A stretch of DNA of 64,000 bases, taken from assembly GCA_037134915.1 (NCBI GenBank), contig JBAXLJ010000001.1, positions 229,484 to 293,483 on the forward strand. The letters run 5' to 3'. Source of the DNA: Candidatus Falkowbacteria bacterium (GTDB lineage Bacteria > Patescibacteriota > Patescibacteriia > Patescibacteriales > UBA12465). Numbering within the stretch: the first letter of the stretch is position 1; every line of letters begins with the position of its first letter. The position numbers were made by a program, and so were the translations under genes. Shown piece after piece: positions 16,822-64,000 of the stretch. Under the pieces are notes generated by a model. It worked only from the letters and a program-made list of their open reading frames with translations. It did no database searches and was not told the origin of the DNA.

Positions 16822-16894
16822 TAGCCAAAATTTTGCAAGGAAGTCTAGCAATAGTCTTCCTTTTTTCTTTTTAAAGATCATTTTTATTACTAAC

Positions 16895-45397: not shown

Positions 45398-46603
45398 ATG
45401 CCAATTTTTCGCTATAAAGCTCACACCAAAAAAGGTAAGGTTAAATCCGGAATTGATATCGGCTTAAATGAAGCTGATTTAGTCGCTCGTTTTCGGCGCA
45501 AAGAGCTGGAAATTTTTTCTTTGGTGCCTGCTGAAGATGATTTAGAAACCAAAATAAAATTATTTGTCGAGCGTTCTAACACTAAAGATTTAGTAATTTT
45601 TTCGCGCCAATTCTCAGTGATGATTTCGGCTAATGTGCCGGTAGTGGAGTCCCTTCTTATTTTAATTGAGCAAACCGAAAATTTTTCACTCAAGAACATG
45701 ATTGCCGATATTGCATTTGAAGTCGATGCTGGTTCGCTGCTCTCCGATTCTTTTGAAAAAAGACCAGAGGTCTTTTCTAATTTTTTCGTCAACATTATTC
45801 GGTCTGGGGAAACTTCTGGTAAATTAGATGAAGTGCTTAATTATTTAGCCGATGAAATGGAGAAAAGTTATGATATGGCCTCGAAGGTTAAGGGGGCGAT
45901 GATTTATCCAATTTTTATCTTAGTCGGACTAATTGGCGTGGCGATTGTTTTGATGGTTTATGTAATTCCTAATTTGACTTCGGTGCTGACAGAGTCGGGC
46001 GCCGAATTACCCTTTGCCACTCGCGTGGTTATTGGCACTTCTAATTTTTTAACTAAATATTTATTATTGTTATTTTTGGCCTGTGTTGGTTTAGCTTTCT
46101 TGGCCCGTTTATATCTTAAGACTTATAACGGTCAGCGTAATTTAGATATTGTTAAGTTGCGGATGCCAATTTTTGGCACACTCTTTAAATATATTTATCT
46201 GATGCGTTTTACCCGTTCGCTCTCTACCTTACTTAAAGGTGGCGTGACTATTACTAAGAGTTTAGAGATTGTGGCTGATGTGGTCAGTAACGTTATTTAT
46301 AAGGAAATTATTTTAGCTACTTTAGAATCGATCAATGATGGTAATCCATTATCTACGGTTATGGAAAACGAACCAACAATTCCGAAAATGGTGCCACAAA
46401 TGTTAGCGGTTGGTGAACGTACCGGTAAGATTGATGTGGTTCTGGATAAAATTACCGAATTTTATAGTCGGGAAGCGGATAAAATGCTGGCTAATTTAAG
46501 TACCTTGATGGAGCCAGTGATTATGACCGTAATGGGTATCGGCGTCGGAATTATGGTGGCGGCGGTTATTATGCCGATGTATAACATGGCTAGCCAGTTC
46601 TAA
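45398..46603 (+). CDS. pilC: Type IV pilus platform protein PilC (GspF family), intact copy
   Basis: Two GspF-type repeats with 3 TM. ATG 45398 follows the pilB stop; ORF-track TTG 45374 is unlikely. Confidence 0.9.
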   Translation: MPIFRYKAHTKKGKVKSGIDIGLNEADLVARFRRKELEIFSLVPAEDDLETKIKLFVERSNTKDLVIFSRQFSVMISANVPVVESLLILIEQTENFSLKNMIADIAFEVDAGSLLSDSFEKRPEVFSNFFVNIIRSGETSGKLDEVLNYLADEMEKSYDMASKVKGAMIYPIFILVGLIGVAIVLMVYVIPNLTSVLTESGAELPFATRVVIGTSNFLTKYLLLLFLACVGLAFLARLYLKTYNGQRNLDIVKLRMPIFGTLFKYIYLMRFTRSLSTLLKGGVTITKSLEIVADVVSNVIYKEIILATLESINDGNPLSTVMENEPTIPKMVPQMLAVGERTGKIDVVLDKITEFYSREADKMLANLSTLMEPVIMTVMGIGVGIMVAAVIMPMYNMASQF

Positions 46604-46685
46604 CTCTTGTAGTGTTTATTGATTATGATATAATATTAAGGTATTATAATTTATATACTAAAATAAATAGTTTAAAAAAAATTTT

Positions 46686-47099
46686 ATGAAGAAGAAAGGT
46701 TTTACCTTGATTGAATTACTCGTCGTTGTGGCCATTATCGGATTGCTGGCGACCCTATCAATCGTGGCTTTAAATAACGCTCGTGCCCGGGCTCGTGATG
46801 CTAAGCGGGTGGCCGATGTTAAACAAGTTCAAACCGCTCTAGAGCTTTATTATAACGATCAAGGTTCTTACCCAACCTCAATTCCAACCTCCGGAGTAAT
46901 GATTGCTAGCGGAACAACAGTTTACATGAATCAGATTCCTGTTGCCCCAACTCCATTTGATGGTGGTTGCACCGCCGCTAACAACTCTTATGTTTATGCC
47001 GGCACCTCTCAGACTTACACTTTAACTTACTGTTTAGGTAACGCCACTGGTGGCATTGTCGCCGGTTACGGCACCGCCACTCCAGCGGGTATCAGATAA
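46686..47099 (+). CDS. Type IV pilin paralog 1
   Basis: Prepilin leader MKKKG|FTLIELLVVVAIIG; C-terminal TATPAGI. Confidence 0.9.
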   Translation: MKKKGFTLIELLVVVAIIGLLATLSIVALNNARARARDAKRVADVKQVQTALELYYNDQGSYPTSIPTSGVMIASGTTVYMNQIPVAPTPFDGGCTAANNSYVYAGTSQTYTLTYCLGNATGGIVAGYGTATPAGIR

Positions 47100-47120
47100 A
47101 TATCTAGCTTTATTATAAGA

Positions 47121-47157
47121 ATCAAGTATTTCTAAAAAAGATACTTGATTTTTTTAT
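47121..47157 (+). terminator. Intrinsic terminator after pilin 1
   Basis: ATCAAGTAT...ATACTTGAT followed by T7. Confidence 0.8.
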
Positions 47158-47231
47158 TTTGGTGATATTTATTTGCTATAGATTATAAAAAGTTGTATAC
47201 TTTTAGCGTAATATTTTTTTAGTAAAACAGT

Positions 47232-47657
47232 ATGCACAAGAAAGGTTTCACCTTGATCGAGTTGTTAGTGGTCGTGGCTATTATCGGGCTTCTAGCTACA
47301 CTGTCTATGGTAGCGTTAAATAATGCCCGAGCTCGATCGCGTGACGCTAAAAGAGTGGCTGATGTCAAACAAATGCAAACTGCTCTCGAACTTTATTTTA
47401 ATGATCAGGGAACTTATCCTTCAGCGGTGCCTACTTCCGGAACGACCATTGCTAGCGGCACGGTTGTTTATATGAATAAGGTGCCTGTGCCGCCGCTGCC
47501 CGTTGATGGCACTTCTTGCCCCGCGAATCCGACGGCCTATACTTACGGTCAAACTGATTCGGGCAGATCTTACACTATCGCTTATTGTTTAGGAAATACC
47601 ACCGGCGGAATTGCGGGTAACGTGGTGTCGACGGCTACCCCAGCTGGCATAAAATAA
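47232..47657 (+). CDS. Type IV pilin paralog 2
   Basis: MHKKG|FTLIELLVVVAIIG; C-terminal TATPAGI. Confidence 0.9.
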   Translation: MHKKGFTLIELLVVVAIIGLLATLSMVALNNARARSRDAKRVADVKQMQTALELYFNDQGTYPSAVPTSGTTIASGTVVYMNKVPVPPLPVDGTSCPANPTAYTYGQTDSGRSYTIAYCLGNTTGGIAGNVVSTATPAGIK

Positions 47658-47714
47658 TTTATTTAAAAACTTTAAAACATTTAAAATATTTGTTTTAATC
47701 TAATTTATCTCAAT

Positions 47715-48146
47715 ATGAACAAGAAAAAAGGTTTTACCTTAATTGAATTGCTGGTGGTAGTCGCTATCATCGGCTTGCTAGCCACTTTATCAATTGTGGC
47801 CTTAAATAATGCTCGTGCTCGGGCTCGTGACGCTAAAAGAATCGCTGATATCAAGCAGATTCAAACCGCTTTAGAGCTTTATTACAATGATTGGGCAACT
47901 TACCCTGGCTCTATAAGCTCAGGAAGTGCAATTGCTAGCGGTACTGTCTATATGAATCAGGTACCAAACGCTCCAACTCCATTTGATAACAGTGGAACAG
48001 CTAATTGTACTGCCGCTAACAATCTTTATACTTATGCGGTTACTGGCGGAGCTTCACAAACTTACACTTTGACTTACTGTCTCGGTAATGCCACTGGTGG
48101 CGTTGCGGCTGGTTTAGGAACAGCGACTCCGGCCGGTATTAAATAA
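47715..48146 (+). CDS. Type IV pilin paralog 3
   Basis: MNKKKG|FTLIELLVVVAIIG; C-terminal TATPAGI. Confidence 0.9.
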   Translation: MNKKKGFTLIELLVVVAIIGLLATLSIVALNNARARARDAKRIADIKQIQTALELYYNDWATYPGSISSGSAIASGTVYMNQVPNAPTPFDNSGTANCTAANNLYTYAVTGGASQTYTLTYCLGNATGGVAAGLGTATPAGIK

Positions 48147-48165
48147 AAAATTGTTTAGTTTAAAA

Positions 48166-48195
48166 ATCAAGCGCCTAAAAACGCTTGATTTTTTG
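48166..48195 (+). terminator. Intrinsic terminator after pilin 3
   Basis: ATCAAGCG-CCTAAAAA-CGCTTGAT followed by T-run. It lies inside the ORF-track N-terminal extension of the next gene. Confidence 0.8.
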
Positions 48196-48255
48196 TTGCC
48201 ACTAAGAGAAAAAAGTTGTATAGTTTTATTTATAATTACTTTTTATTTAAAAAAT

Positions 48256-48678
48256 ATGAGAAAAAAAGGTTTTACCTTGATTGAATTACTAGTCGTGGTG
48301 GCCATTATCGGCTTACTGGCGACCCTATCGATCGTGGCCCTAAACAATGCCCGAGCTCGATCGCGCGACGCTAAACGAGTAGCCGATGTGAAGCAGATGC
48401 AAACGGCTTTGGAGCTTTATTTTAATGATAACGCCTCTTATCCAAGTAGCGTGACCCCCGGTGGCGTCATTAGTGTCACCAGCACAGTTTATATGAATCG
48501 GGTTCCAGTGCCACCACTGCCAGCTGATGGCGGCGCGCTTTGTCCGGCTAACCCGACGGCTTATACTTACGGTCAAACTGATTCCGGCCGTTCTTACACG
48601 ATTTCTTATTGTTTAGGTTTCACCACCGGAACGATTTTGCCTGGCGTCGGCACGGCGACACCAGCTGGTATTGATTAG
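48256..48678 (+). CDS. Type IV pilin paralog 4 (true start ATG 48256)
   Basis: MRKKG|FTLIELLVVVAIIG; C-terminal TATPAGI. Confidence 0.88.
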   Translation: MRKKGFTLIELLVVVAIIGLLATLSIVALNNARARSRDAKRVADVKQMQTALELYFNDNASYPSSVTPGGVISVTSTVYMNRVPVPPLPADGGALCPANPTAYTYGQTDSGRSYTISYCLGFTTGTILPGVGTATPAGID

Positions 48679-48764
48679 AATTTTCAAATTTTTGGCCTTA
48701 ATCCCGACTCGTAATCCTGCGAGCCGGGATTTTCTTTTGCCAGAAAAATCGGTATAATGAAAGT

Positions 48765-49733
48765 ATGAAAATTTTGCCTTTACTGAATACAAAAGTTGTT
48801 CAGGATTTTTTAGTCAAAGCCGCACCTAATTCGGGGGCGGAGTTTTTGGCGTCTCTTGAGTGGGCGGAAATTTTAAAAACTGAAGGGGCCAAAGTCGAAA
48901 CTCTAGGCGTTTATAATGACAATCAAGAACTAGTGGCCGTTTTTAATTTAATTTACCAGCGTCTATCCGTGGTTTATTCGCCACGCGGTCCGGTTTTTAA
49001 TCGGGGTTTATCCCAAGGCGAGCAAGTGGAAATCCTACAATTTTTAATCACTTATTTAAGAAATAAAAAGATAATTTTTTGGCGGGTTGAGCCTCGGGAA
49101 ATTTTACCCCCAGGTTTAAGCTTTAAAAAAGTTAAAAATTTACAGCCTCAAAAAACTTTAATGCTGAATTTAGAAGTTAGTGAGACGGAGTTGTTAAATA
49201 GTTTTCATCCAAAAACACGCTACAACATTAAATTAGCTGACAAGAAAGGCGTGGTTATTCGTGAGGGGGTAAATGCTACCGATTTTGAAGACTTTTGGTC
49301 TTTGATGGGTGAGACGGGTCGTCGCGATGCTTTTAAAATCCATAACAAAAATCATTATTTAAAACTGGCGACCGCTAAACCGGAATTTATTAAATTACTT
49401 TTGGCCCAAGTTAATCATCAGACGGTAGCCGCTGGTTTGTTTGCTTTCTATGGTAATAAAGTAACTTATTTACACGGCGCCTCTTCATATCAAAATCGGC
49501 AATTAATGGCGCCCTATCTTCTGCAGTGGACTTTAATTAAAATGGCGCGGGCGAGTCATTATAAGTACTATGATTTCTACGGCGTGGACGGACTTAAATG
49601 GCCGGGAGTGACTCGTTTTAAATTAGGCTTTTCTGGTTTTTCGGTTTCCTATGCGGGCACCTACGATTTAATTTTAAATCCAATAAAATATTATTTATAT
49701 AACCTGCTTAAAAAAGTTAAACGTTTTTTATGA
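48765..49733 (+). CDS. FemAB-family peptidoglycan interpeptide-bridge aminoacyltransferase
   Basis: ~320 aa with the family pattern KTRYNIKLADKKGV and ...YLHGASS... Confidence 0.78.
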   Translation: MKILPLLNTKVVQDFLVKAAPNSGAEFLASLEWAEILKTEGAKVETLGVYNDNQELVAVFNLIYQRLSVVYSPRGPVFNRGLSQGEQVEILQFLITYLRNKKIIFWRVEPREILPPGLSFKKVKNLQPQKTLMLNLEVSETELLNSFHPKTRYNIKLADKKGVVIREGVNATDFEDFWSLMGETGRRDAFKIHNKNHYLKLATAKPEFIKLLLAQVNHQTVAAGLFAFYGNKVTYLHGASSYQNRQLMAPYLLQWTLIKMARASHYKYYDFYGVDGLKWPGVTRFKLGFSGFSVSYAGTYDLILNPIKYYLYNLLKKVKRFL

Positions 49734-50191
49734 TTGAAATTACCAACACCACCAAACTTAAAATAAATAAAAAACAGCTGACTAATTTGAGTGAAGCCTT
49801 TTTGCAGACTTTTAAAAAAAGCCGCGTGGATGTTTCAATCGCTATTGTCGGCGACTTACAGATTAAAAGGCTTAATGATAAATATCGCGGACACAACACC
49901 ACAACAGACGTCTTGTCTTTTGCGGGAGCGGAGTGGGAAGGGAATCTGCTTGGCGAACTGATTATTAATCCCCGAGAAATAAAGCGCTTACATAAATATC
50001 GCGAGATTTTGGAATTTGTTGGATTAAAATATCCGCCAGTTAAGCTTAAATCAGCGGAGACTTATTTATTTTATTTTATTTTGATTCACGGACTCTTGCA
50101 TCTAATCGGTTATAACGATGAAACTGAAGAAGATCGTTTGCAAATGCTGCAAATCGGTCGCGATTTTTTGGACAAACATGGTATAATTTAA
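49730..50191 (+). CDS. ybeY: rRNA maturation endoribonuclease YbeY
   Basis: HGLLHLIGYNDE metal-binding motif (HGxLHLxGYD-type); 153 aa. Confidence 0.86.
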   Translation: MIEITNTTKLKINKKQLTNLSEAFLQTFKKSRVDVSIAIVGDLQIKRLNDKYRGHNTTTDVLSFAGAEWEGNLLGELIINPREIKRLHKYREILEFVGLKYPPVKLKSAETYLFYFILIHGLLHLIGYNDETEEDRLQMLQIGRDFLDKHGII

Positions 50192-50193
50192 TT

Positions 50194-51522
50194 ATGGTTA
50201 AATCTTTTTTAAAAATAATAATCCTATTTTCCTTAGTGGCTACGGTTTTTTTATTACAACCAGTAAAGCCCGCTCAGGCCTCAACCGCGGATAATATCCG
50301 AGGCTTAGCTTATAATAGTTTATATGGTTATATTAGTTTTAATTGCTTGGATGATGATTTTTCTGGTCGTTTTCCGTTCACTTTTCCCTTTACTTTTAAC
50401 ATCATTGCGTGCGCCAATAATAATCACGGCGTTAATTTAAGTGCTGACAATAATTTCTCCGGCGACGCTTGGAATACTTTTTTAGGACTAATTACTTTTA
50501 CTAGCACTTCGACGCCGCCTGACGGCGGTGCTTTTAGAGCCAACTGTGAAAATAGTGTGGCCACTAGCACAGCTTGCTATCGGGAACTTGACCGTAAAAT
50601 TTATGGTTATATGCGGGTAGTTTCAACTGGCGATTGGATTAACTTAAATGATTCTTCGATAACGCCGACAGCGGGGATTACTAATTATAACGATCCGGCG
50701 CCGGGTATTTTTTCTGGTTATGCCAGTTCGAGTTTTGGCGCTATTAGTTTTAACTGCACTAATGATGGTTCTTGTGCTACCAATAATTACAGCGTGGAAA
50801 TCGGCCCCACAGAAATTAGGCAGATGACCGCTCCGAATTGGGATAGCGTTTCAGCTTGTGCTAATGGGGCCGCTCACGCCTTTCTAAAGTGGAGTCGGCG
50901 CAGTGGTACGCAAACGGCTTATCAGTTGATTGTGAGTACGGCTAATAGCACCAGCAGTGGCGTGGTGGTTGATACTGGTAAAGTTAGTAACAGTGCGACG
51001 CAATACTCTTTTACGCCGCCAACAACTGATACGGCTTATTATTGGTTTTTAAGATTGTGGGACATCACCGATACCGTTACTCCTTGGCGGCAATTTAACA
51101 CCAGTGGTACCAAAGATTGGATCACCGATAATTATAACCGTAATTTACAGCGAGGTAATTCGGCCACTTTTACTAGTTATAAACACGAATTTCCACTGCC
51201 GCAGTTCACTTGGAATCCCATCGAAATTGTGGTGGCCACTACTAGTAATAGTTTTATCAGTAACTCTTCCTATTACACCGACGCCAATGTTATGCAAACT
51301 TGTAGTAGCGGTTCAGTCTGTTCTTATCTTTGGTCGGTGAGCGACGCAGGGGCGGTCGTTAGTAACCCAACCTCACCATCAACTTCCATTATGTTTACTC
51401 GAGCGACTAATACGGTGGTGACTTTATCTTCAACGGATGATGATATTTATACTTGTTCCACCTCGACGATGTTAAATGTTAATTTCTTACTACCAACTTG
51501 GAAAGAGGTTAAAGCTCAATAA
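50194..51522 (+). CDS. Secreted hypothetical protein with FN3-like module, inside the pilus locus
   Basis: Signal peptide ..VKPAQA|S. The segment LKWSRRSGTQTAYQLIVS...YYWFLRLWD resembles an FN3-like beta-sandwich. Confidence 0.5.
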   Translation: MVKSFLKIIILFSLVATVFLLQPVKPAQASTADNIRGLAYNSLYGYISFNCLDDDFSGRFPFTFPFTFNIIACANNNHGVNLSADNNFSGDAWNTFLGLITFTSTSTPPDGGAFRANCENSVATSTACYRELDRKIYGYMRVVSTGDWINLNDSSITPTAGITNYNDPAPGIFSGYASSSFGAISFNCTNDGSCATNNYSVEIGPTEIRQMTAPNWDSVSACANGAAHAFLKWSRRSGTQTAYQLIVSTANSTSSGVVVDTGKVSNSATQYSFTPPTTDTAYYWFLRLWDITDTVTPWRQFNTSGTKDWITDNYNRNLQRGNSATFTSYKHEFPLPQFTWNPIEIVVATTSNSFISNSSYYTDANVMQTCSSGSVCSYLWSVSDAGAVVSNPTSPSTSIMFTRATNTVVTLSSTDDDIYTCSTSTMLNVNFLLPTWKEVKAQ

Positions 51523-51528
51523 TTTTTT

Positions 51529-52077
51529 ATGAAAAAATCCGGCTTTACGTTAATTGAACTCATTGTTTCGGTCACTATTATTGCTTTAGTAACGGGAATT
51601 TTTTTGGCAAATTATAGCTCGGCTAATCGCCGTTCGGATTTAACCATGACAGCACAGAAAATGGTGACTGATATTCGAACGGCTCAAAATTATGCCTTAG
51701 GCTTAACTCGCTACGGTACTAGTGGTTCGACTAATGTTCCTTTTGGTGGCTGGGGGCTTCACTTCGATTTGCAAAATTATGGCGTTAATAAGTATGTAAT
51801 TTTTGCTGATGATGATGGTGATAAAATTTATGATAGTGGCGAGGATCTGGTTTCTAAGGGGGCGCAAGTGACAACTTTACCTAACAACATTAGTATTAGT
51901 TCACTGTCAACGGGGAATAAGGCGGATATAACTTTTTTGCCACCCGATCCAGTTACTACCATTACCGGTTCATCAGCGACCAGTTCGCAGCTAAATATTA
52001 TTCTCAAAGATAACAAAACTAACGCAATTAAAACGGTGCGCGTTAATTTTTTGGGTTTAGTTGAAGTCATTGATTAG
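51529..52077 (+). CDS. Minor pilin / pseudopilin (GspH/FimT-like)
   Basis: MKKSG|FTLIELIVSVTIIA prepilin N-terminus. Confidence 0.8.
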   Translation: MKKSGFTLIELIVSVTIIALVTGIFLANYSSANRRSDLTMTAQKMVTDIRTAQNYALGLTRYGTSGSTNVPFGGWGLHFDLQNYGVNKYVIFADDDGDKIYDSGEDLVSKGAQVTTLPNNISISSLSTGNKADITFLPPDPVTTITGSSATSSQLNIILKDNKTNAIKTVRVNFLGLVEVID

Positions 52078-52078
52078 T

Positions 52079-52597: not shown

Positions 52598-52602
52598 AAA
52601 AT

Positions 52603-53154: not shown

Positions 53155-53157
53155 TTT

Positions 53158-53571: not shown

Positions 53572-53862
53572 TTTAAGAGTCTCTGGTGATATTTTGTGAG
53601 CTCGCTTCTCACTTTTTCTTCCATTTTTTGTCGAGTGATGGCGCCGGCACTATTTAAAATTTTTCTTTTTCTTGATTCTAATTCTTGAAAATAACTTTTT
53701 TCAGTTTACCTCTTTGTTGCCCTCTTTTTGAACTATCCAGTAATCCTGGATAGTTTGATTTTCGTTAAGTTCAGACTCATTATACACATTTTGTAAATGT
53801 AAACTAATGGTTCTGATATCTTTTTTTAAAAGACTATCCAGAGGATAGTCTTTTAGAACTAA

Positions 53863-54963: not shown

Positions 54964-57900
54964 ATGCTTAAAGAAAACAACAAGAAAAAAACAATCAGAC
55001 GCCTGACTAAGGTCTGTCTTTTTGTTTTACTCTTAGCTGGTTCTTTTTTGTTTGGGGCTAATTCTCGGGCCGCTAATAATGACTATAATAAAATCGCCAC
55101 TAGCACCCTAACGGCGGTGGAGTGGAATAATTTAATTAATGATTTTGTAAATACTTGGAAGTCGGATTCAATGGTTGGTCCTTTGGGAATTGGAACAACT
55201 AATCCTTTGTATTCTTTGGATGTCAACGGCACTGGTTCTTTTAACCAACCTTTAATTGTGGGGACGCCAACGGCCTCTAATCACGCGGCGACTAAAAATT
55301 ATGTCGACTCGATTATTGGTGGCGGCTCTGGTTCAACGGTTGGTTATTGGACGATGAACGGTATAAATATAAATAATTCTAATGCGGGTAATGTGGGGAT
55401 TGGAACAGCTTCGCCAGCTAGTAAACTTGATGTCGTGGGCAATGCGGCTATTTCCGGAACACTGACGGTGCCAACAATTAATGGATTAAGTATCTCTAAT
55501 TTCTACGGACCTAATAACGCTATTACTTGGAATGTGACAGCGCCGGCTTCTTATACTAACAATAATGTGGTCGCTCCGGATTTTACCACCACGGCGGCGA
55601 CTCTTAATTTTACAGCTGGTAATGGTAGTCACTGGGATTTATACAATGCTATGTCTGGCTTGACTCCGGGCGCTTCTTACACGGTGTCGCTTTATGTGAA
55701 ATTAGGAACTTCAACTAACTTTTCTTTAGTCGTAAACAACGCGGCAGCTTGGAATACGATTGGCGGTCGAGTATTTACGGCAGCTGATGGTTTAAGCACT
55801 TCAGCTTGGAAACAAATTTCTTATACTTTTACAGAGCCAGTTGGAAAAACGACTGCCAATATCCATATCGGAGCTAATCAAGAAACGGCTTTAACGGGAA
55901 CACCGCAGGTAGTTGGCTCGGTTTATGTTTGGGGATTTCAAGTAGTGCAAAATAACGCTGGAACCTTGGCTCTACAGCCAACAGTTGGAAACGTGGGAAT
56001 TGGTGTCTCGGCGCCAGGAAGCAAATTATCAATCAGGGGGGCTTCCGGAAGTAATGCTCTGGAAATCCAAAGAGCCAGTGATGGTGCTTCAATGATCACT
56101 GTTGATGATTGGGGGCAATTAAATGCTAGTCATGGTTTTATGATCAGTGCTGGTGGTGGTTATAGTGGTAATTCTGTTTTAGATGTTAGGTCATCATCGG
56201 CCGGTCATATTCCGTTTTCGGTTTTAGGTTATAGCGGTCAGACTGGTAATTTAGTAAACATCACTAGCAATGGCGGCACTCAAGGTAATTTATTTAATAT
56301 TCAGGCTAATGGAAATGTCGGGATTGGGACGACTAATCCTTTGGCTCCATTAGCAATTGTAACCCCGAGTAGCGGTAATTATGAGGCTATTAGAATAAAC
56401 AGGGATGCTACTGGGGCGACATATTGGAGTTTAGGATCTGTATATAATAATACAAATCCAGATTTGATTTTTAAAGTTAATGGAGGCGAAAAAATTAGAT
56501 TTGATGTAAATGGCAACGTCGGTATTGGAACAACGAGCCCACTTTTCAAATTAGATGTAAACGGTACCGGTTCCTTTAATCAACCAGTTGTTGTTGGTAC
56601 GCCAACTATCGCTAGTCACGCGGCGACTAAAAATTATGTTGACTCGGCTATCGGCGGTGGCTCTGGTTCAACGGTTGGTTATTGGGCAATGAATGGAACT
56701 AATATTAATAATTCTAATGCTGGAAACGTTGGAGTCGGGACTACGACTCCTGGTTTTAAGTTAGATGTTAATGGTAATGCCAGATTTACTGATATCTACA
56801 ACTCGGGAACAGTTTTAAAAAAATCTCCATATGAATATTACGGCAGTGTTTATTTAAGTAACACTCTTGATAGTACTAATAATACGGCCTATGTTAATAT
56901 TGGAACTTTTCAAGATGGCTTTACTCATATAAACGTAGAAGTTGAGCTTGTTCCTTGGTTATTTAGCACTGGTAATATAGGTAGCTATCAAAAGTCTTAT
57001 ACGATTAGAATGACGGCTGCTAGTCCTGGGATAGTAAATGTCTATGATTCACGGGTTATTAAAGATGTTGGTCAGACTGGAGACAGATATCAGATTGGGA
57101 CACCCGAAGCTGATGCCAATAATTTACTAAGAATTCCTATTAAATATATTGGTGCTGGCGGTGGCAATCAAATTCAAGCTTTTGTTCGTGTTACTGGCAC
57201 TATGTCGGGAAATATTGACGATGTCAGTCTTTCGGCTGTCGCCGCCACTCCAGTTTCGGCCGGAACACAGGAGTATATGAGTTTCAGAAATAGGTTGGGG
57301 ATTGGAATTACAAATCCTTTAGGAACTCTTCATGTTTCAAACGCTTCTTCTACTAATGCGTTGGTTGTATCTTCTGGAGGACAAATAGGTGTAGGAATCG
57401 CTACGCCACAATCAATAGGAACTAATTATGGAACTATAGATGTGCGAGGCCCTAGTGGTGGTGGCTTTTTCTTTGGTCCGTCTGCTGGCCCATCCGGTTT
57501 ATTTTATTCTAACGGTTCTCAATTATACATGGGTTCGTATACAAACATACCACTTAATCTTCAAACAAATAATTTAGTAAGAGCCACAATAGATGGTGGT
57601 GGCAATGTTGGTATCGGTACTACCTCCCCATTGTATAAACTAGACGTTAATGGCACCGGCTCCTTCAACCAACCAGTGATTGTAGGCACACCAACCATCG
57701 CTAGCCACGCGGCCACTAAAAATTATGTTGATTCAGCTTTAAGTGGTGGTTCTGGTTCCACTGTTGGTTATTGGGTGATGAATGGAACTAATATTAATAA
57801 TTCTAATGCAGGAAATGTGGGCATTGGAACAACAAATCCTGGAGGGGTGCTGCAAGTTACTGGCACAGAAAATAGTCGAGTGATATTAAGTCAATCTACT

Positions 57901-59283
57901 TTTGATTATGCTAAAAAAAGTCCAAAATTATCATTTTTCGCATACGGAGATAATGGCTTGATTACAGGTCCTTCAATTCAAAAAACAAGCACTGGTTCTT
58001 ATGGGGCTGGTAATTTAGGATTTATTCAACATCCTACGGGTGATTACACAACAGAAGTTGAGGTCATGACTATAACCCCAACCGGTAACGTCGGGATTGG
58101 GACGACCTTGCCGAATGGAAAGTTAGATATTAGAGATGCTAATAATGCCGCAATATACCTTTCATCAAGTGCGGCTGATGCCACTTCAGCTACCTCAAAG
58201 ATATATAGTGGTTATGGTGGCTCTGGCGGATGGGCGAATACATATTTAAGATTTGCTACTTCGCCTGCATCTGGCACTTTTAATGATTCGATGACAATTT
58301 TGGGAAACGGTAATATTGGGGTTGGAACGACTAATCCATTACAATTATTAGATGTGCGCTCGGCTAATGCTACCGCTCCTATTATAGCCGCTGGGTCAAC
58401 GCTTTCTTCTTATTCTGCTAATTCAGTAGTATCGACAATTTCTTTGGGGTCATATTATACAACTGGTTTGCAATTCTATTCAGCTGGGCAAATTTCTGGT
58501 AAATTAGATGAAGTGCTTAATTATTTAGCCGATGAAATGGAGAAAAGTTATGATATGGCCTCGAAGGTTAAGGGGGCGATGATTTATCCAATTTTTATCT
58601 TAGTCGGACTAATTGGCGTGGCGATTGTTTTGATGGTTTATGTAATTCCTAATTTGACTTCGGTGCTGACAGAGTCGGGCGCCGAATTACCCTTTGCCAC
58701 TCGCGTGGTTATTGGCACTTCTAATTTTTTAACTAAATATTTATTATTGTTATTTTTGGCCTGTGTTGGTTTAGCTTTCTTGGCCCGTTTATATCTTAAG
58801 ACTTATAACGGTCAGCGTAATTTAGATATTGTTAAGTTGCGGATGCCAATTTTTGGCACACTCTTTAAATATATTTATCTGATGCGTTTTACCCGTTCGC
58901 TCTCTACCTTACTTAAAGGTGGCGTGACTATTACTAAGAGTTTAGAGATTGTGGCTGATGTGGTCAGTAACGTTATTTATAAGGAAATTATTTTAGCTAC
59001 TTTAGAATCGATCAATGATGGTAATCCATTATCTACGGTTATGGAAAACGAACCAACAATTCCGAAAATGGTGCCACAAATGTTAGCGGTTGGTGAACGT
59101 ACCGGTAAGATTGATGTGGTTCTGGATAAAATTACCGAATTTTATAGTCGGGAAGCGGATAAAATGCTGGCTAATTTAAGTACCTTGATGGAGCCAGTGA
59201 TTATGACCGTAATGGGTATCGGCGTCGGAATTATGGTGGCGGCGGTTATTATGCCGATGTATAACATGGCTAGCCAGTTCTAA
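54964..59283 (+). CDS. Chimeric ORF: ~1,177-aa tail-fibre-like repeat surface protein fused in frame at nt 58494 to PilC residues ~140-401
   Basis: Signal/TM MLKENNKKKTIRRLTKVCLFVLLLAGS. Three copies of GIGTT.P..KLDVNGTGSFNQP..VGTPT..SHAATKNYVDS..GGGSGSTVGYW.MNG.NINNSNAGNVG. The C-terminal 262 aa are identical to the pilC product. Confidence 0.7.
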   Translation: MLKENNKKKTIRRLTKVCLFVLLLAGSFLFGANSRAANNDYNKIATSTLTAVEWNNLINDFVNTWKSDSMVGPLGIGTTNPLYSLDVNGTGSFNQPLIVGTPTASNHAATKNYVDSIIGGGSGSTVGYWTMNGININNSNAGNVGIGTASPASKLDVVGNAAISGTLTVPTINGLSISNFYGPNNAITWNVTAPASYTNNNVVAPDFTTTAATLNFTAGNGSHWDLYNAMSGLTPGASYTVSLYVKLGTSTNFSLVVNNAAAWNTIGGRVFTAADGLSTSAWKQISYTFTEPVGKTTANIHIGANQETALTGTPQVVGSVYVWGFQVVQNNAGTLALQPTVGNVGIGVSAPGSKLSIRGASGSNALEIQRASDGASMITVDDWGQLNASHGFMISAGGGYSGNSVLDVRSSSAGHIPFSVLGYSGQTGNLVNITSNGGTQGNLFNIQANGNVGIGTTNPLAPLAIVTPSSGNYEAIRINRDATGATYWSLGSVYNNTNPDLIFKVNGGEKIRFDVNGNVGIGTTSPLFKLDVNGTGSFNQPVVVGTPTIASHAATKNYVDSAIGGGSGSTVGYWAMNGTNINNSNAGNVGVGTTTPGFKLDVNGNARFTDIYNSGTVLKKSPYEYYGSVYLSNTLDSTNNTAYVNIGTFQDGFTHINVEVELVPWLFSTGNIGSYQKSYTIRMTAASPGIVNVYDSRVIKDVGQTGDRYQIGTPEADANNLLRIPIKYIGAGGGNQIQAFVRVTGTMSGNIDDVSLSAVAATPVSAGTQEYMSFRNRLGIGITNPLGTLHVSNASSTNALVVSSGGQIGVGIATPQSIGTNYGTIDVRGPSGGGFFFGPSAGPSGLFYSNGSQLYMGSYTNIPLNLQTNNLVRATIDGGGNVGIGTTSPLYKLDVNGTGSFNQPVIVGTPTIASHAATKNYVDSALSGGSGSTVGYWVMNGTNINNSNAGNVGIGTTNPGGVLQVTGTENSRVILSQSTFDYAKKSPKLSFFAYGDNGLITGPSIQKTSTGSYGAGNLGFIQHPTGDYTTEVEVMTITPTGNVGIGTTLPNGKLDIRDANNAAIYLSSSAADATSATSKIYSGYGGSGGWANTYLRFATSPASGTFNDSMTILGNGNIGVGTTNPLQLLDVRSANATAPIIAAGSTLSSYSANSVVSTISLGSYYTTGLQFYSAGQISGKLDEVLNYLADEMEKSYDMASKVKGAMIYPIFILVGLIGVAIVLMVYVIPNLTSVLTESGAELPFATRVVIGTSNFLTKYLLLLFLACVGLAFLARLYLKTYNGQRNLDIVKLRMPIFGTLFKYIYLMRFTRSLSTLLKGGVTITKSLEIVADVVSNVIYKEIILATLESINDGNPLSTVMENEPTIPKMVPQMLAVGERTGKIDVVLDKITEFYSREADKMLANLSTLMEPVIMTVMGIGVGIMVAAVIMPMYNMASQF
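55184..55410 (+). repeat. Internal coding repeat A of the large surface protein
   Basis: ~75-aa module; see repeats B and C. Confidence 0.8.
56518..56750 (+). repeat. Internal coding repeat B
   Basis: Same module; DNA diverged mostly at synonymous positions. Confidence 0.8.
57607..57840 (+). repeat. Internal coding repeat C
   Basis: Same module. Confidence 0.8.
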
Positions 59284-59365
59284 CTCTTGTAGTGTTTATT
59301 GATTATGATATAATATTAAGGTATTATAATTTATATACTAAAATAAATAGTTTAAAAAAAATTTT

Positions 59366-59779
59366 ATGAAGAAGAAAGGTTTTACCTTGATTGAATTACT
59401 CGTCGTTGTGGCCATTATCGGATTGCTGGCGACCCTATCAATCGTGGCTTTAAATAACGCTCGTGCCCGGGCTCGTGATGCTAAGCGGGTGGCCGATGTT
59501 AAACAAGTTCAAACCGCTCTAGAGCTTTATTATAACGATCAAGGTTCTTACCCAACCTCAATTCCAACCTCCGGAGTAATGATTGCTAGCGGAACAACAG
59601 TTTACATGAATCAGATTCCTGTTGCCCCAACTCCATTTGATGGTGGTTGCACCGCCGCTAACAACTCTTATGTTTATGCCGGCACCTCTCAGACTTACAC
59701 TTTAACTTACTGTTTAGGTAACGCCACTGGTGGCATTGTCGCCGGTTACGGCACCGCCACTCCAGCGGGTATCAGATAA
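59366..59779 (+). CDS. Type IV pilin paralog 1, duplicate copy
   Basis: Protein identical to 46686..47099. Confidence 0.9.
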   Translation: MKKKGFTLIELLVVVAIIGLLATLSIVALNNARARARDAKRVADVKQVQTALELYYNDQGSYPTSIPTSGVMIASGTTVYMNQIPVAPTPFDGGCTAANNSYVYAGTSQTYTLTYCLGNATGGIVAGYGTATPAGIR

Positions 59780-59911
59780 ATATCTAGCTTTATTATAAGA
59801 ATCAAGTATTTCTAAAAAAGATACTTGATTTTTTTATTTTGGTGATATTTATTTGCTATAGATTATAAAAAGTTGTATACTTTTAGCGTAATATTTTTTT
59901 AGTAAAACAGT

Positions 59912-60337
59912 ATGCACAAGAAAGGTTTCACCTTGATCGAGTTGTTAGTGGTCGTGGCTATTATCGGGCTTCTAGCTACACTGTCTATGGTAGCGTTAAA
60001 TAATGCCCGAGCTCGATCGCGTGACGCTAAAAGAGTGGCTGATGTCAAACAAATGCAAACTGCTCTCGAACTTTATTTTAATGATCAGGGAACTTATCCT
60101 TCAGCGGTGCCTACTTCCGGAACGACCATTGCTAGCGGCACGGTTGTTTATATGAATAAGGTGCCTGTGCCGCCGCTGCCCGTTGATGGCACTTCTTGCC
60201 CCGCGAATCCGACGGCCTATACTTACGGTCAAACTGATTCGGGCAGATCTTACACTATCGCTTATTGTTTAGGAAATACCACCGGCGGAATTGCGGGTAA
60301 CGTGGTGTCGACGGCTACCCCAGCTGGCATAAAATAA
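59912..60337 (+). CDS. Type IV pilin paralog 2, duplicate copy
   Basis: Protein identical to 47232..47657. Confidence 0.9.
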   Translation: MHKKGFTLIELLVVVAIIGLLATLSMVALNNARARSRDAKRVADVKQMQTALELYFNDQGTYPSAVPTSGTTIASGTVVYMNKVPVPPLPVDGTSCPANPTAYTYGQTDSGRSYTIAYCLGNTTGGIAGNVVSTATPAGIK

Positions 60338-60394
60338 TTTATTTAAAAACTTTAAAACATTTAAAATATTTGTTTTAATCTAATTTATCTCAAT

Positions 60395-60826
60395 ATGAAC
60401 AAGAAAAAAGGTTTTACCTTAATTGAATTGCTGGTGGTAGTCGCTATCATCGGCTTGCTAGCCACTTTATCAATTGTGGCCTTAAATAATGCTCGTGCTC
60501 GGGCTCGTGACGCTAAAAGAATCGCTGATATCAAGCAGATTCAAACCGCTTTAGAGCTTTATTACAATGATTGGGCAACTTACCCTGGCTCTATAAGCTC
60601 AGGAAGTGCAATTGCTAGCGGTACTGTCTATATGAATCAGGTACCAAACGCTCCAACTCCATTTGATAACAGTGGAACAGCTAATTGTACTGCCGCTAAC
60701 AATCTTTATACTTATGCGGTTACTGGCGGAGCTTCACAAACTTACACTTTGACTTACTGTCTCGGTAATGCCACTGGTGGCGTTGCGGCTGGTTTAGGAA
60801 CAGCGACTCCGGCCGGTATTAAATAA
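60395..60826 (+). CDS. Type IV pilin paralog 3, duplicate copy
   Basis: Protein identical to 47715..48146. Confidence 0.9.
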   Translation: MNKKKGFTLIELLVVVAIIGLLATLSIVALNNARARARDAKRIADIKQIQTALELYYNDWATYPGSISSGSAIASGTVYMNQVPNAPTPFDNSGTANCTAANNLYTYAVTGGASQTYTLTYCLGNATGGVAAGLGTATPAGIK

Positions 60827-60935
60827 AAAATTGTTTAGTTTAAAAATCAAGCGCCTAAAAACGCTTGATTTTTTGTTGCCACTAAGAGAAAAAAGTTGTA
60901 TAGTTTTATTTATAATTACTTTTTATTTAAAAAAT

Positions 60936-61358
60936 ATGAGAAAAAAAGGTTTTACCTTGATTGAATTACTAGTCGTGGTGGCCATTATCGGCTTACTGGC
61001 GACCCTATCGATCGTGGCCCTAAACAATGCCCGAGCTCGATCGCGCGACGCTAAACGAGTAGCCGATGTGAAGCAGATGCAAACGGCTTTGGAGCTTTAT
61101 TTTAATGATAACGCCTCTTATCCAAGTAGCGTGACCCCCGGTGGCGTCATTAGTGTCACCAGCACAGTTTATATGAATCGGGTTCCAGTGCCACCACTGC
61201 CAGCTGATGGCGGCGCGCTTTGTCCGGCTAACCCGACGGCTTATACTTACGGTCAAACTGATTCCGGCCGTTCTTACACGATTTCTTATTGTTTAGGTTT
61301 CACCACCGGAACGATTTTGCCTGGCGTCGGCACGGCGACACCAGCTGGTATTGATTAG
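60936..61358 (+). CDS. Type IV pilin paralog 4, duplicate copy
   Basis: Protein identical to 48256..48678. Confidence 0.88.
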   Translation: MRKKGFTLIELLVVVAIIGLLATLSIVALNNARARSRDAKRVADVKQMQTALELYFNDNASYPSSVTPGGVISVTSTVYMNRVPVPPLPADGGALCPANPTAYTYGQTDSGRSYTISYCLGFTTGTILPGVGTATPAGID

Positions 61359-61444
61359 AATTTTCAAATTTTTGGCCTTAATCCCGACTCGTAATCCTGC
61401 GAGCCGGGATTTTCTTTTGCCAGAAAAATCGGTATAATGAAAGT

Positions 61445-62413
61445 ATGAAAATTTTGCCTTTACTGAATACAAAAGTTGTTCAGGATTTTTTAGTCAAAGC
61501 CGCACCTAATTCGGGGGCGGAGTTTTTGGCGTCTCTTGAGTGGGCGGAAATTTTAAAAACTGAAGGGGCCAAAGTCGAAACTCTAGGCGTTTATAATGAC
61601 AATCAAGAACTAGTGGCCGTTTTTAATTTAATTTACCAGCGTCTATCCGTGGTTTATTCGCCACGCGGTCCGGTTTTTAATCGGGGTTTATCCCAAGGCG
61701 AGCAAGTGGAAATCCTACAATTTTTAATCACTTATTTAAGAAATAAAAAGATAATTTTTTGGCGGGTTGAGCCTCGGGAAATTTTACCCCCAGGTTTAAG
61801 CTTTAAAAAAGTTAAAAATTTACAGCCTCAAAAAACTTTAATGCTGAATTTAGAAGTTAGTGAGACGGAGTTGTTAAATAGTTTTCATCCAAAAACACGC
61901 TACAACATTAAATTAGCTGACAAGAAAGGCGTGGTTATTCGTGAGGGGGTAAATGCTACCGATTTTGAAGACTTTTGGTCTTTGATGGGTGAGACGGGTC
62001 GTCGCGATGCTTTTAAAATCCATAACAAAAATCATTATTTAAAACTGGCGACCGCTAAACCGGAATTTATTAAATTACTTTTGGCCCAAGTTAATCATCA
62101 GACGGTAGCCGCTGGTTTGTTTGCTTTCTATGGTAATAAAGTAACTTATTTACACGGCGCCTCTTCATATCAAAATCGGCAATTAATGGCGCCCTATCTT
62201 CTGCAGTGGACTTTAATTAAAATGGCGCGGGCGAGTCATTATAAGTACTATGATTTCTACGGCGTGGACGGACTTAAATGGCCGGGAGTGACTCGTTTTA
62301 AATTAGGCTTTTCTGGTTTTTCGGTTTCCTATGCGGGCACCTACGATTTAATTTTAAATCCAATAAAATATTATTTATATAACCTGCTTAAAAAAGTTAA
62401 ACGTTTTTTATGA
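61445..62413 (+). CDS. FemAB-family aminoacyltransferase, duplicate copy
   Basis: Protein identical to 48765..49733. Confidence 0.78.
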   Translation: MKILPLLNTKVVQDFLVKAAPNSGAEFLASLEWAEILKTEGAKVETLGVYNDNQELVAVFNLIYQRLSVVYSPRGPVFNRGLSQGEQVEILQFLITYLRNKKIIFWRVEPREILPPGLSFKKVKNLQPQKTLMLNLEVSETELLNSFHPKTRYNIKLADKKGVVIREGVNATDFEDFWSLMGETGRRDAFKIHNKNHYLKLATAKPEFIKLLLAQVNHQTVAAGLFAFYGNKVTYLHGASSYQNRQLMAPYLLQWTLIKMARASHYKYYDFYGVDGLKWPGVTRFKLGFSGFSVSYAGTYDLILNPIKYYLYNLLKKVKRFL

Positions 62414-62871
62414 TTGAAATTACCAACACCACCAAACTTAAAATAAATAAAAAACAGCTGACTAATTTGAGTGAAGCCTTTTTGCAGACTTTTAAAAAAA
62501 GCCGCGTGGATGTTTCAATCGCTATTGTCGGCGACTTACAGATTAAAAGGCTTAATGATAAATATCGCGGACACAACACCACAACAGACGTCTTGTCTTT
62601 TGCGGGAGCGGAGTGGGAAGGGAATCTGCTTGGCGAACTGATTATTAATCCCCGAGAAATAAAGCGCTTACATAAATATCGCGAGATTTTGGAATTTGTT
62701 GGATTAAAATATCCGCCAGTTAAGCTTAAATCAGCGGAGACTTATTTATTTTATTTTATTTTGATTCACGGACTCTTGCATCTAATCGGTTATAACGATG
62801 AAACTGAAGAAGATCGTTTGCAAATGCTGCAAATCGGTCGCGATTTTTTGGACAAACATGGTATAATTTAA
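62410..62871 (+). CDS. ybeY: YbeY endoribonuclease, duplicate copy
   Basis: Protein identical to 49730..50191. Confidence 0.86.
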   Translation: MIEITNTTKLKINKKQLTNLSEAFLQTFKKSRVDVSIAIVGDLQIKRLNDKYRGHNTTTDVLSFAGAEWEGNLLGELIINPREIKRLHKYREILEFVGLKYPPVKLKSAETYLFYFILIHGLLHLIGYNDETEEDRLQMLQIGRDFLDKHGII

Positions 62872-62873
62872 TT

Positions 62874-64000
62874 ATGGTTAAATCTTTTTTAAAAATAATA
62901 ATCCTATTTTCCTTAGTGGCTACGGTTTTTTTATTACAACCAGTAAAGCCCGCTCAGGCCTCAACCGCGGATAATATCCGAGGCTTAGCTTATAATAGTT
63001 TATATGGTTATATTAGTTTTAATTGCTTGGATGATGATTTTTCTGGTCGTTTTCCGTTCACTTTTCCCTTTACTTTTAACATCATTGCGTGCGCCAATAA
63101 TAATCACGGCGTTAATTTAAGTGCTGACAATAATTTCTCCGGCGACGCTTGGAATACTTTTTTAGGACTAATTACTTTTACTAGCACTTCGACGCCGCCT
63201 GACGGCGGTGCTTTTAGAGCCAACTGTGAAAATAGTGTGGCCACTAGCACAGCTTGCTATCGGGAACTTGACCGTAAAATTTATGGTTATATGCGGGTAG
63301 TTTCAACTGGCGATTGGATTAACTTAAATGATTCTTCGATAACGCCGACAGCGGGGATTACTAATTATAACGATCCGGCGCCGGGTATTTTTTCTGGTTA
63401 TGCCAGTTCGAGTTTTGGCGCTATTAGTTTTAACTGCACTAATGATGGTTCTTGTGCTACCAATAATTACAGCGTGGAAATCGGCCCCACAGAAATTAGG
63501 CAGATGACCGCTCCGAATTGGGATAGCGTTTCAGCTTGTGCTAATGGGGCCGCTCACGCCTTTCTAAAGTGGAGTCGGCGCAGTGGTACGCAAACGGCTT
63601 ATCAGTTGATTGTGAGTACGGCTAATAGCACCAGCAGTGGCGTGGTGGTTGATACTGGTAAAGTTAGTAACAGTGCGACGCAATACTCTTTTACGCCGCC
63701 AACAACTGATACGGCTTATTATTGGTTTTTAAGATTGTGGGACATCACCGATACCGTTACTCCTTGGCGGCAATTTAACACCAGTGGTACCAAAGATTGG
63801 ATCACCGATAATTATAACCGTAATTTACAGCGAGGTAATTCGGCCACTTTTACTAGTTATAAACACGAATTTCCACTGCCGCAGTTCACTTGGAATCCCA
63901 TCGAAATTGTGGTGGCCACTACTAGTAATAGTTTTATCAGTAACTCTTCCTATTACACCGACGCCAATGTTATGCAAACTTGTAGTAGCGGTTCAGTCTG
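62874..64000 (+). CDS. Secreted FN3-like protein, duplicate copy (3' end cut by the window)
   Basis: DNA identical to 50194-51320 where checked. Confidence 0.5.
   Translation, partial: MVKSFLKIIILFSLVATVFLLQPVKPAQASTADNIRGLAYNSLYGYISFNCLDDDFSGRFPFTFPFTFNIIACANNNHGVNLSADNNFSGDAWNTFLGLITFTSTSTPPDGGAFRANCENSVATSTACYRELDRKIYGYMRVVSTGDWINLNDSSITPTAGITNYNDPAPGIFSGYASSSFGAISFNCTNDGSCATNNYSVEIGPTEIRQMTAPNWDSVSACANGAAHAFLKWSRRSGTQTAYQLIVSTANSTSSGVVVDTGKVSNSATQYSFTPPTTDTAYYWFLRLWDITDTVTPWRQFNTSGTKDWITDNYNRNLQRGNSATFTSYKHEFPLPQFTWNPIEIVVATTSNSFISNSSYYTDANVMQTCSSGSV

What the first reader, a model, noticed from the sequence alone, without database searches (positions are those of the whole stretch)
45814..64000. 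Direct repeat of at least 5.5 kb with a 12,680-bp offset, duplicating half of the pilus locus; no differences found where compared
Seen: 58494-64000 matches 45814-51320 in all seven ORF translations, in a constant coordinate shift of 12,680 and in the spot-checked intergenic stretches. I did not compare every base. The match runs to the window end, so the true length is unknown. If it is a tandem duplication of the unit 45814-58493, the second copy would end near 71173, outside this window. It duplicates the 3' two-thirds of pilC, four pilin paralogs, femAB, ybeY and the secreted FN3-like gene. A long repeat with no visible divergence would be unusual in a small, streamlined genome. It is either a very recent segmental duplication (pilin dosage or a variation substrate) or an assembly artefact.
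Basis: seen in the sequence. Interest (0 to 1): 0.72.

Follow-up and report, generated by a model that had tools for sequence, protein, structure and literature searches.

The report
Recent tandem duplication in pilus locus
A 12,680-base block of 14 genes (pilus subunits and neighbours) is present twice, head to tail and without any difference, in this Candidatus Falkowbacteria genome bin; the joint looks like an ordinary, very young microhomology-mediated duplication, but only the original reads can show that it is real and how common it is.

Summary
The repeat is real in the sequence. Window 45814-51320 and 58494-64000 are identical at 5507 of 5507 bases, with a sharp left edge.

The window comes from a 314,016-bp contig of an NCBI Candidatus Falkowbacteria MAG (locus tags WCK59_). 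In that record every gene of the unit 45814-58493 has two protein accessions exactly 14 apart. An intact 2981-aa copy of the surface gene follows the second copy.

The joint at 58493/58494 fuses the first 1176 codons of the surface gene in frame to the last 262 codons of pilC. It lies in a patch of short similarity between the two parent genes: 8 of 10 bases on the left, and a shared Ser-Gly on the right (at most 7 exact bases). That rules out a k-mer misjoin and makes blind contig concatenation unlikely (roughly 1e-5).

Unit size and joint match classic RecA-independent tandem duplications in E. coli. Two related genomes carry the locus once.

The most likely reading is a genuine, very recent and possibly polymorphic duplication (about 0.65). 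An artefact is not excluded without reads. Nothing supports a programmed pilin-variation role. This is an ordinary kind of event and of modest interest.

The parts
45814..58493 (+). Copy 1 of the duplicated unit (12,680 bp, 14 genes counting the chimera)
   Evidence: Offset and exact identity with 58494-64000. Paired protein accessions 14 apart for every gene of the unit.
58494..64000 (+). Visible part of copy 2. The predicted end is 71173, outside the window.
   Evidence: 5507/5507 identical to 45814-51320. The remainder is inferred from identical second protein entries MEI6835496-502 and the intact surface gene MEI6835503.
58483..58500 (+). Novel joint. The surface-gene tail GCTGGGCAAAT is joined to the pilC sequence TTCTGGT. 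The parental pilC site is 45803-45820 (TCTGGGGAAAC|TTCTGGT).
   Evidence: Sequences printed. 8/10 matches left of the joint, P about 1e-3. The native surface protein continues I-S-G like the chimera, so at most 7 bases of exact microhomology are possible on the right (inferred).
45398..46603 (+). Intact pilC (T2SSF, 401 aa, MEI6835475), a single entry in the record. The duplication starts at the third base of its codon 139.
   Evidence: Pfam T2SSF E=4.5e-59. Exact look-up gives one accession only. Codon position.
54964..59283 (+). Chimeric in-frame ORF (1439 aa, MEI6835489). It joins surface protein residues 1-1176, including the N-terminal hydrophobic signal or anchor, to PilC residues 140-401 with three hydrophobic segments.
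   Evidence: ORF list. Pfam T2SSF at residues 1330-1452 of the longest ORF. 100% hit P0001. Hydropathy.
46686..48678 (+). Four tandem pilin paralogs, each preceded by a promoter-like site. The second copy lies at 59366-61358.
   Evidence: N_methyl hits. Repeat families D1, D4 and D5. Promoter-like sites at 46619, 47173, 47628 and 48196.
48765..50191 (+). femAB-family gene and ybeY. The second copy lies at 61445-62871.
   Evidence: Pfam FemAB E=2.9e-46 and YbeY E=7.3e-22. ybeY accessions MEI6835481/495.
50194..51522 (+). Secreted Ig-like protein (442 aa). The second copy starts at 62874 and is cut by the window end.
   Evidence: Pfam Ig_Rha78A_N E=1e-8. Accessions MEI6835482/496.
51529..53571 (+). 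Four minor-pilin-like genes (GspH/FimT-like, two N_methyl proteins, one with no family hit). The second copies lie outside the window.
   Evidence: Pfam. Accessions MEI6835483-486 / 497-500.
53863..54727 (-). AbiEii-family nucleotidyltransferase toxin gene plus an overlapping 88-aa upstream ORF. They are part of the unit.
   Evidence: Pfam AbiEii E=7.6e-16. Accessions MEI6835487/501 and 488/502.

Best explanation
This is a genuine, evolutionarily very young tandem duplication of a 12,680-bp chromosomal segment in the sampled Candidatus Falkowbacteria population. It most likely arose by RecA-independent illegitimate recombination or template switching between two short, imperfectly similar sequences: pilC TCTGGGGAAAC-TTCTGGT and surface gene GCTGGGCAAAT-TTCTGGT, 12.68 kb apart. 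As in any tandem duplication, both parental genes stay intact at the outer edges: pilC upstream, and the 2981-aa surface gene downstream of copy 2. Only the novel joint creates something new, an in-frame fusion of the surface protein's first 1176 residues to the last 262 residues of PilC. The duplication doubles the copy number of four pilin genes, femAB, ybeY, an Ig-like secreted protein, four minor pilins and an AbiEii pair. Shown here: the structure, the identity, the joint sequence and the single-copy state in relatives. Inferred: the in vivo origin, the mechanism, and that the duplication may be polymorphic and unstable rather than fixed. The chimera is probably a by-product, because an exported N-terminal part is fused to a membrane protein with cytoplasmic domains.
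For: The 5507 bases that can be compared are all identical, with a sharp left edge. The record has a full tandem structure: paired accessions 14 apart for every unit gene, one entry for intact pilC, and an intact surface gene MEI6835503 after copy 2 that shares residues 1-1176 with the chimera. The joint lies in local similarity: 8/10 bases on the left (P about 1e-3 from 200,000 random position pairs), and a shared Ser-Gly on the right of the parental proteins (S x G frequency 0.014), jointly about 1e-5. The exact shared stretch can be at most 7 bases, far below any assembler k-mer or overlap threshold, so sequenced molecules must have carried the joint. There is no N run, no IS, no transposase and no long flanking repeat. 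The unit size and joint type match experimentally characterised E. coli amplifications: direct repeats, 4-15 bp junction identity sometimes flanked by further short identities separated by mismatches, and units of about 11-20 kb (PMC1428787). Two relatives have the same gene order once, one of them on a 275,892-bp contig with an intact 3896-aa surface gene.
Against: No reads, coverage or long reads could be examined. The DNA beyond 64000 could not be fetched, so the right-hand microhomology rests on protein sequence, and identity of the rest of copy 2 rests on identical proteins. Zero divergence is also what an assembler produces if it writes one graph edge twice when traversing a loop. No independent assembly (Logan, ENA, JGI) was found that carries the joint, although that search also missed the known chimera, so it has little power. 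The duplication lies within about 25 kb of the contig end, in a region of repetitive giant genes where assemblies are fragile.
Confidence: 0.65

Rival explanations
1. Purely computational artefact. No DNA molecule carries the joint, and the second copy was created by the assembler, a scaffolder, a contig-merging step or manual curation, for example by concatenating two contigs that overlap by 12.68 kb.
For: The copies are perfectly identical. The source is a MAG. The region lies near a contig end among repetitive giant genes, and a relative's short-read contig breaks inside the same surface gene. No independent contig with the joint was found.
Against: A de Bruijn misjoin needs an exact shared k-mer of 21 or more bases, and here at most 7 bases can be shared. 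Blind concatenation would not place the joint in a patch with 8/10 matching bases plus matching Ser-Gly codons (about 1e-5). There is no N spacer. Overlap-based mergers would have collapsed a 12.68-kb perfect overlap, not doubled it.
Confidence: 0.15
2. The joint exists in the reads but only in a minority of cells, or in vitro as a template-switch chimera. A graph assembler then traversed the resulting loop once, so the deposited two-copy consensus overstates what most genomes carry.
For: Tandem duplications are typically transient and polymorphic (established knowledge; instability through homologous recombination is discussed in PMC1428787). The two copies would be identical by construction if written from one graph edge (inference). 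Microhomology joints also occur in polymerase template-switch chimeras (own knowledge).
Against: Random in vitro chimeras are individually rare and seldom survive assembler coverage filters. There is no direct information on the assembler or on coverage. The minority-variant version still implies a real in vivo duplication and so overlaps with the best explanation.
Confidence: 0.15
3. Selected or programmed amplification: the duplication is maintained because extra pilin dosage, a reservoir for pilin variation, or the surface-PilC fusion protein is advantageous to this episymbiont-type bacterium.
For: The unit carries four major-pilin paralogs with promoter-like sites of their own, plus minor pilins. 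The fusion is in frame. Pilin copy number differs among relatives, four here and three in both relatives.
Against: The unit's borders cut two genes at arbitrary internal sites. It also carries unrelated genes (femAB, ybeY, AbiEii). The copies are identical and complete, so they provide no sequence variation. An in-frame joint has a prior of 1/3. No relative has the duplication. No recombination signals or silent cassettes were seen.
Confidence: 0.05

Closest known systems
Microhomology-mediated (RecA-independent) tandem duplication and amplification, as characterised at lac in Escherichia coli (Slack et al. 2006, PMC1428787)
   Same: Head-to-tail direct repeat with a single novel joint. The joint lies in a few bases of identity flanked by further short identities interrupted by mismatches. 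The unit is about 10-20 kb. Both outer parental sequences are intact. No mobile element is involved.
   Different: Only two copies are recorded here and no selection is known. The organism is an uncultured Patescibacteria member known only from a metagenome bin. The formation mechanism and the frequency in the population are inferred, not measured.
Tandem duplications formed by homologous recombination between long repeats (rrn operons, IS elements, REP) in Salmonella and E. coli
   Same: The product has the same topology (A-B-B-C) and the same expected instability.
   Different: No long repeat or IS flanks the unit. The identity ends exactly at the joint, and the parental sites share at most 7 exact bases.
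Assembler loop or concatenation artefacts in metagenome assemblies
   Same: The copies are perfectly identical and arranged head to tail in an assembled contig of a MAG.
   Different: Such artefacts either need a shared k-mer at the join or give joins at arbitrary places. Here the shared stretch is too short for a k-mer, and the join is not arbitrary.
Pilin antigenic-variation loci (Neisseria pilE/pilS type)
   Same: Several pilin paralogs lie side by side near the pilus assembly genes.
   Different: The duplicated copies are complete, promoter-bearing and identical. They are not truncated silent cassettes with divergent variable regions. The duplicated block also includes many non-pilin genes.

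Membership tests
Microhomology-mediated tandem duplication | Two copies in direct, head-to-tail orientation with nothing between them | tested here: met
   Copy 2 starts at 58494, immediately after the last base of copy 1, and the offset equals the unit length of 12,680. The gene order repeats with accessions 14 apart.
Microhomology-mediated tandem duplication | One novel joint, with both parental sequences still intact at the outer borders | tested here: met
   Intact pilC lies at 45398-46603. The intact 2981-aa surface protein MEI6835503 follows copy 2. This second point is known at protein level only, because that DNA lies outside the window.
Microhomology-mediated tandem duplication | A few bases of identity between the two parental sites at the crossover | tested here: inconclusive
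   Left of the joint, 8/10 bases match (P about 1e-3). Right of it, both parental proteins read Ser-Gly, so 1-7 exact bases are possible. The native DNA could not be obtained.
Microhomology-mediated tandem duplication | Doubled read depth over the unit and reads spanning the joint | not testable with these tools
   No reads are available. No independent contig with the joint was found.
Homologous-recombination (long-repeat or IS-mediated) duplication | Long direct repeats or IS copies at both ends of the unit | tested here: not met
   No repeat family flanks 45814 and 58493, and there are no inverted repeats. No transposase or integrase domains occur in or beside the unit.
De Bruijn graph misjoin | An exact shared k-mer (typically 21 bases or more) at the false join | tested here: not met
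   Bases 45813 and 58493 differ. On the right, the parental proteins diverge after Ser-Gly (K versus V, which differ at the first codon base), so at most 7 bases are shared.
Contig concatenation or untrimmed overlap | A join at unrelated positions, often with an N spacer | tested here: not met
   The window has no N. The join falls in local similarity, with a joint probability of about 1e-5.
Terminal redundancy of a circular or viral contig | The repeat sits at the two ends of a contig or element | tested here: not met
   The repeats are 12.68 kb apart inside a 314,016-bp chromosomal contig. Genes continue on both sides, and the locus is syntenic with relatives' chromosomes.
Type IV pilus / T2SS-like locus (the content of the unit) | PilB ATPase, PilC platform protein, PilM, and prepilins with an N-methylation motif | tested here: met
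   Pfam hits: T2SSE 3e-126, T2SSF 4.5e-59, PilM_2 2e-44, and N_methyl in seven genes, one of them (52061-52597) below Pfam's cut-off.
Pilin antigenic-variation cassette system | Promoterless or truncated silent copies that differ from the expressed gene in variable regions | tested here: not met
   The duplicated pilin genes are full length and 100% identical to the first set, and they keep promoter-like sites.

The most novel reading that the evidence does not exclude
The duplication is held at high frequency by selection in a Patescibacteria population. That would make it a natural example of adaptive amplification of pilus and surface genes in an episymbiont with a reduced genome. The in-frame surface-protein::PilC fusion would be expressed as a membrane-anchored protein with a new function.
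Probability: 0.06. Interest if true: 0.5.

Novelty: new member of a known kind. Interest (0 to 1): 0.25.

Why it matters
If real, this is a clean natural example of a newborn tandem duplication caught before any divergence in an uncultured bacterium with a reduced genome. It shows that the microhomology-driven process known from E. coli also operates in Patescibacteria, and that it can create an in-frame gene fusion.

In practice it matters mostly as a caution. GenBank names the chimera MEI6835489.1 a 'type II secretion system F family protein', and 13 genes are counted twice. This inflates gene counts and could mislead pilus-gene inventories and redundancy-based contamination estimates for this bin.

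Tried and rejected
- **Exact protein look-ups of encoding contigs.** I queried the chimera, the intact surface protein, ybeY, the first pilin, the GspH-like pilin and AbiEii. None is on record, so the DNA beyond 64000 could not be read.
- **Exact 50-mer from 63941-63990.** It has no match in genome contigs or metagenome contigs.
- **Native junction peptide of the intact surface protein.** In genome contigs the best relative is 52% identical and is not an ortholog. In metagenome contigs there is nothing. The third sequence needed to measure the right-hand microhomology is therefore missing.
- **Protein search with a peptide centred on the joint, to find an independent assembly carrying it.** It returned only full-length PilC homologs and did not even list the known chimera, so it is uninformative.
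- **Two minor-pilin look-ups.** They returned a 1.8-kb ENA contig that is 99.94% identical to 52056-53855. The same population occurs in another assembly, but this says nothing about the joint. A second contig of 10-20 kb was counted but not shown.
- **Logan sources.** Intact pilC is listed under NCBI only, while the other unit genes are listed under NCBI and Logan. I considered whether this means an assembly-graph branch inside pilC. It is suggestive but cannot be tested here, so I did not use it as evidence.
- **Rejected readings.** IS- or long-repeat-mediated duplication, terminal redundancy of a circular element, and a pilE/pilS-type variation system (see the membership tests).
- **Pfam on the intact surface protein and on small ORFs near the promoter-like repeats.** No informative hits.
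Full report
**Observation**

A base-by-base comparison shows that window 45814-51320 and 58494-64000 are identical at all 5507 positions, at a constant offset of 12,680. The window contains no N.

The identity ends sharply on the left: base 45813 differs from base 58493. Further left the two flanks match at background level, except for 8 matches in the last 10 bases. The identity continues to the window end.

The repeat finder places every internal pilin repeat family at the same offset. It finds no other repeat flanking the unit and no inverted repeats.

**Content**

Upstream lie pilM (40891-41940), three small genes and pilB (43624-45384). The rest of the locus is:

| Feature | Coordinates |
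|---|---|
| pilC (T2SSF; real start probably 45398) | 45398-46603 |
| four N-methyl pilins | 46686-48678 |
| FemAB-family gene | 48765-49733 |
| ybeY | 49730-50191 |
| secreted Ig-like protein | 50194-51522 |
| four minor-pilin-like genes | 51529-53571 |
| AbiEii toxin gene plus an 88-aa ORF (minus strand) | 53863-54727 |
| large repetitive surface gene | starts at 54901/54964 |

It reads in frame through 58493/58494 into the pilC frame and ends at the pilC stop, 59283.

**Source, and what lies beyond the window**

A protein search with the surface-gene part returned a 100% identical protein, P0001 (MEI6835489.1, 1439 aa). It is named 'type II secretion system F family protein' and comes from a Candidatus Falkowbacteria MAG, on a contig of 314,016 bp.

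Its 90% cluster holds a second protein from the same contig, P0121 (MEI6835503.1, WCK59_01600, 2981 aa). The two are identical for 1176 residues, up to '...FYSAGQISG'. P0001 then continues as PilC ('KLDEVLNY...') and P0121 continues as surface protein ('VNENNVDS...').

Exact look-ups of ten unit proteins show that each gene of the unit has two accessions exactly 14 apart:

| Gene | Accessions (MEI68354..) |
|---|---|
| first pilin | 76 / 90 |
| ybeY | 81 / 95 |
| Ig-like protein | 82 / 96 |
| four minor pilins | 83-86 / 97-500 |
| AbiEii | 87 / 501 |
| 88-aa ORF | 88 / 502 |
| intact pilC | 75 only |

The deposited contig is therefore A-B-B-C with B = 45814-58493. Copy 2 should end at 71173, and the intact surface gene should occupy about 67644-76589.

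Two genes after the intact surface gene, WCK59_01610 is 'partial'. The contig therefore ends soon after, inside another giant paralog.

**Anatomy of the joint**

- pilC reads ...CGG TCT GGG GAA AC|T TCT GGT AAA TTA...
- The chimera reads ...TCA GCT GGG CAA AT|T TCT GGT AAA TTA....

Left of the joint, 8 of 10 bases match (CTGGG.AAA.). Among 200,000 random position pairs in the window, that happens with a frequency of about 1e-3.

Right of the joint, the native surface protein also reads Ile-Ser-Gly before it diverges (V versus K). The two parental sequences can therefore share at most the 7 bases T TCT GGT.

The chance of a Ser-Gly match, from the protein's own composition, is about 0.014. Jointly, the joint sits in a patch of local similarity expected by chance about once in 1e5.

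I could not obtain the native DNA to count the exact shared bases.

**What this excludes**

- *K-mer misjoin.* This needs an exact shared word of 21 or more bases, and at most 7 are possible.
- *Blind concatenation of overlapping contigs, or an untrimmed overlap.* Neither would land in a similarity patch, and there is no N spacer.
- *IS-mediated or long-repeat-mediated recombination.* There is no flanking repeat and no transposase.
- *Terminal redundancy of a circular element.* The unit lies inside a 314-kb chromosomal contig whose gene order is shared with relatives.

The remaining explanations require DNA molecules that carry the joint.

**Comparison with known events**

In E. coli, lac amplifications are direct repeats with a single novel joint. 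The joint has 4-15 bp of identity, in some cases with further 3-base identities separated by 1-2 mismatches. Units include 10.9 and 20.3 kb, with a mode of about 16 kb (PMC1428787). The present joint and its 12.68-kb unit fit that description closely.

Tandem duplications leave both parental genes intact and create one fusion at the joint, which is what is seen here. An in-frame joint has a prior of 1/3 and needs no special explanation.

Hydropathy shows an N-terminal signal or anchor in the surface part, and the three C-terminal hydrophobic segments of PilC in the fusion. An exported domain fused to a platform protein with cytoplasmic domains is more likely a by-product than a working protein. 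This is inference.

**Relatives**

- A 30-kb ENA contig (L001; pilC 95% identical in protein, DNA about 83%) has the same order once: thrS ... pilM-pilB-pilC, pilins, femAB, ybeY, Ig-like gene, minor pilins, surface gene. It breaks inside the surface gene.
- A 275,892-bp contig (L087; pilC 88%) also has the locus once, followed by an intact 3896-aa surface gene.

The duplication is therefore specific to this bin.

**Remaining doubt**

No reads could be examined. Perfect identity of the copies is expected for a newborn duplication. It is also what results if an assembler writes one graph edge twice when a junction edge closes a loop. Copy number and population frequency are therefore unknown.

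A search for an independent assembly carrying the joint found none, but it also failed to list the known chimera, so it has little power. A 1.8-kb ENA contig that is 99.94% identical to 52056-53855 shows only that the same population was assembled elsewhere.

**Verdict**

My weights for the explanations are:

| Reading | Weight |
|---|---|
| Genuine, very recent microhomology-mediated tandem duplication, possibly polymorphic | about 0.65 |
| Purely computational artefact | about 0.15 |
| Real or in vitro minority joint inflated by loop traversal | about 0.15 |
| Selected or programmed amplification | about 0.05 |

The first and third readings overlap, because a minority variant is still a real duplication.

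Nothing supports a pilin-variation system. The copies are complete and identical, and the unit's borders cut two genes at arbitrary internal points.

This is a new instance of a well-known kind of event. Interest is modest. The main practical consequences are a misleadingly named chimera and 13 doubly counted genes in the GenBank record.

Noticed in passing
window 53863-54727 (minus strand); L001 16350-17282; L087 17370-18871: The slot between the minor pilins and the giant surface gene holds a different cassette in each genome: AbiEii toxin plus an 88-aa ORF here, a RhuM-family gene in L001, and an AAA ATPase/DUF4143 gene plus a 119-aa ORF in L087. It looks like a small hotspot for defence or toxin-antitoxin genes.
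   Followed up: partly
window 46686-48678: There are four tandem pilin paralogs here (72-77% identical over their first 211 bases), but three in both relatives. An older pilin gene gain or loss has therefore occurred at the same locus, independent of the 12.68-kb duplication.
   Followed up: partly
window 694-769, 15377-15452, 15809-15884, 16199-16274, 16886-16961; also 1-65, 776-840, 16281-16345: There are five copies of a ~76-base intergenic module that contains a near-consensus promoter (TTGACAAAAGTATAC...GGTATGCT). Some are followed by a conserved 65-110-base segment. They lie upstream of small ORFs that have no Pfam hit, apart from a weak Polbeta nucleotidyltransferase match.
   Followed up: partly
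window 55176-55418, 56511-56753, 57600-57842: The giant surface gene has internal 243-base repeats (74-80% identical) that encode a recurring motif (NVGIGTT.P.YKLDVNGTGSFNQP.IVGTPT..HAATKNYVDSA). The full protein (2981 aa) has no Pfam hit. Some remote homologs carry PF13884 (tail fibre / endosialidase chaperone). Two more giant paralogs exist in the same bin, one at the contig end.
   Followed up: partly
window 54964-59283: GenBank names the chimeric ORF (MEI6835489.1) 'type II secretion system F family protein'. Only its last 262 residues are PilC, and the first 1176 are surface protein.
   Followed up: yes
window 6443-9730 (minus strand): A 1095-aa ORF in the upstream part of the window was not examined.
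   Followed up: no
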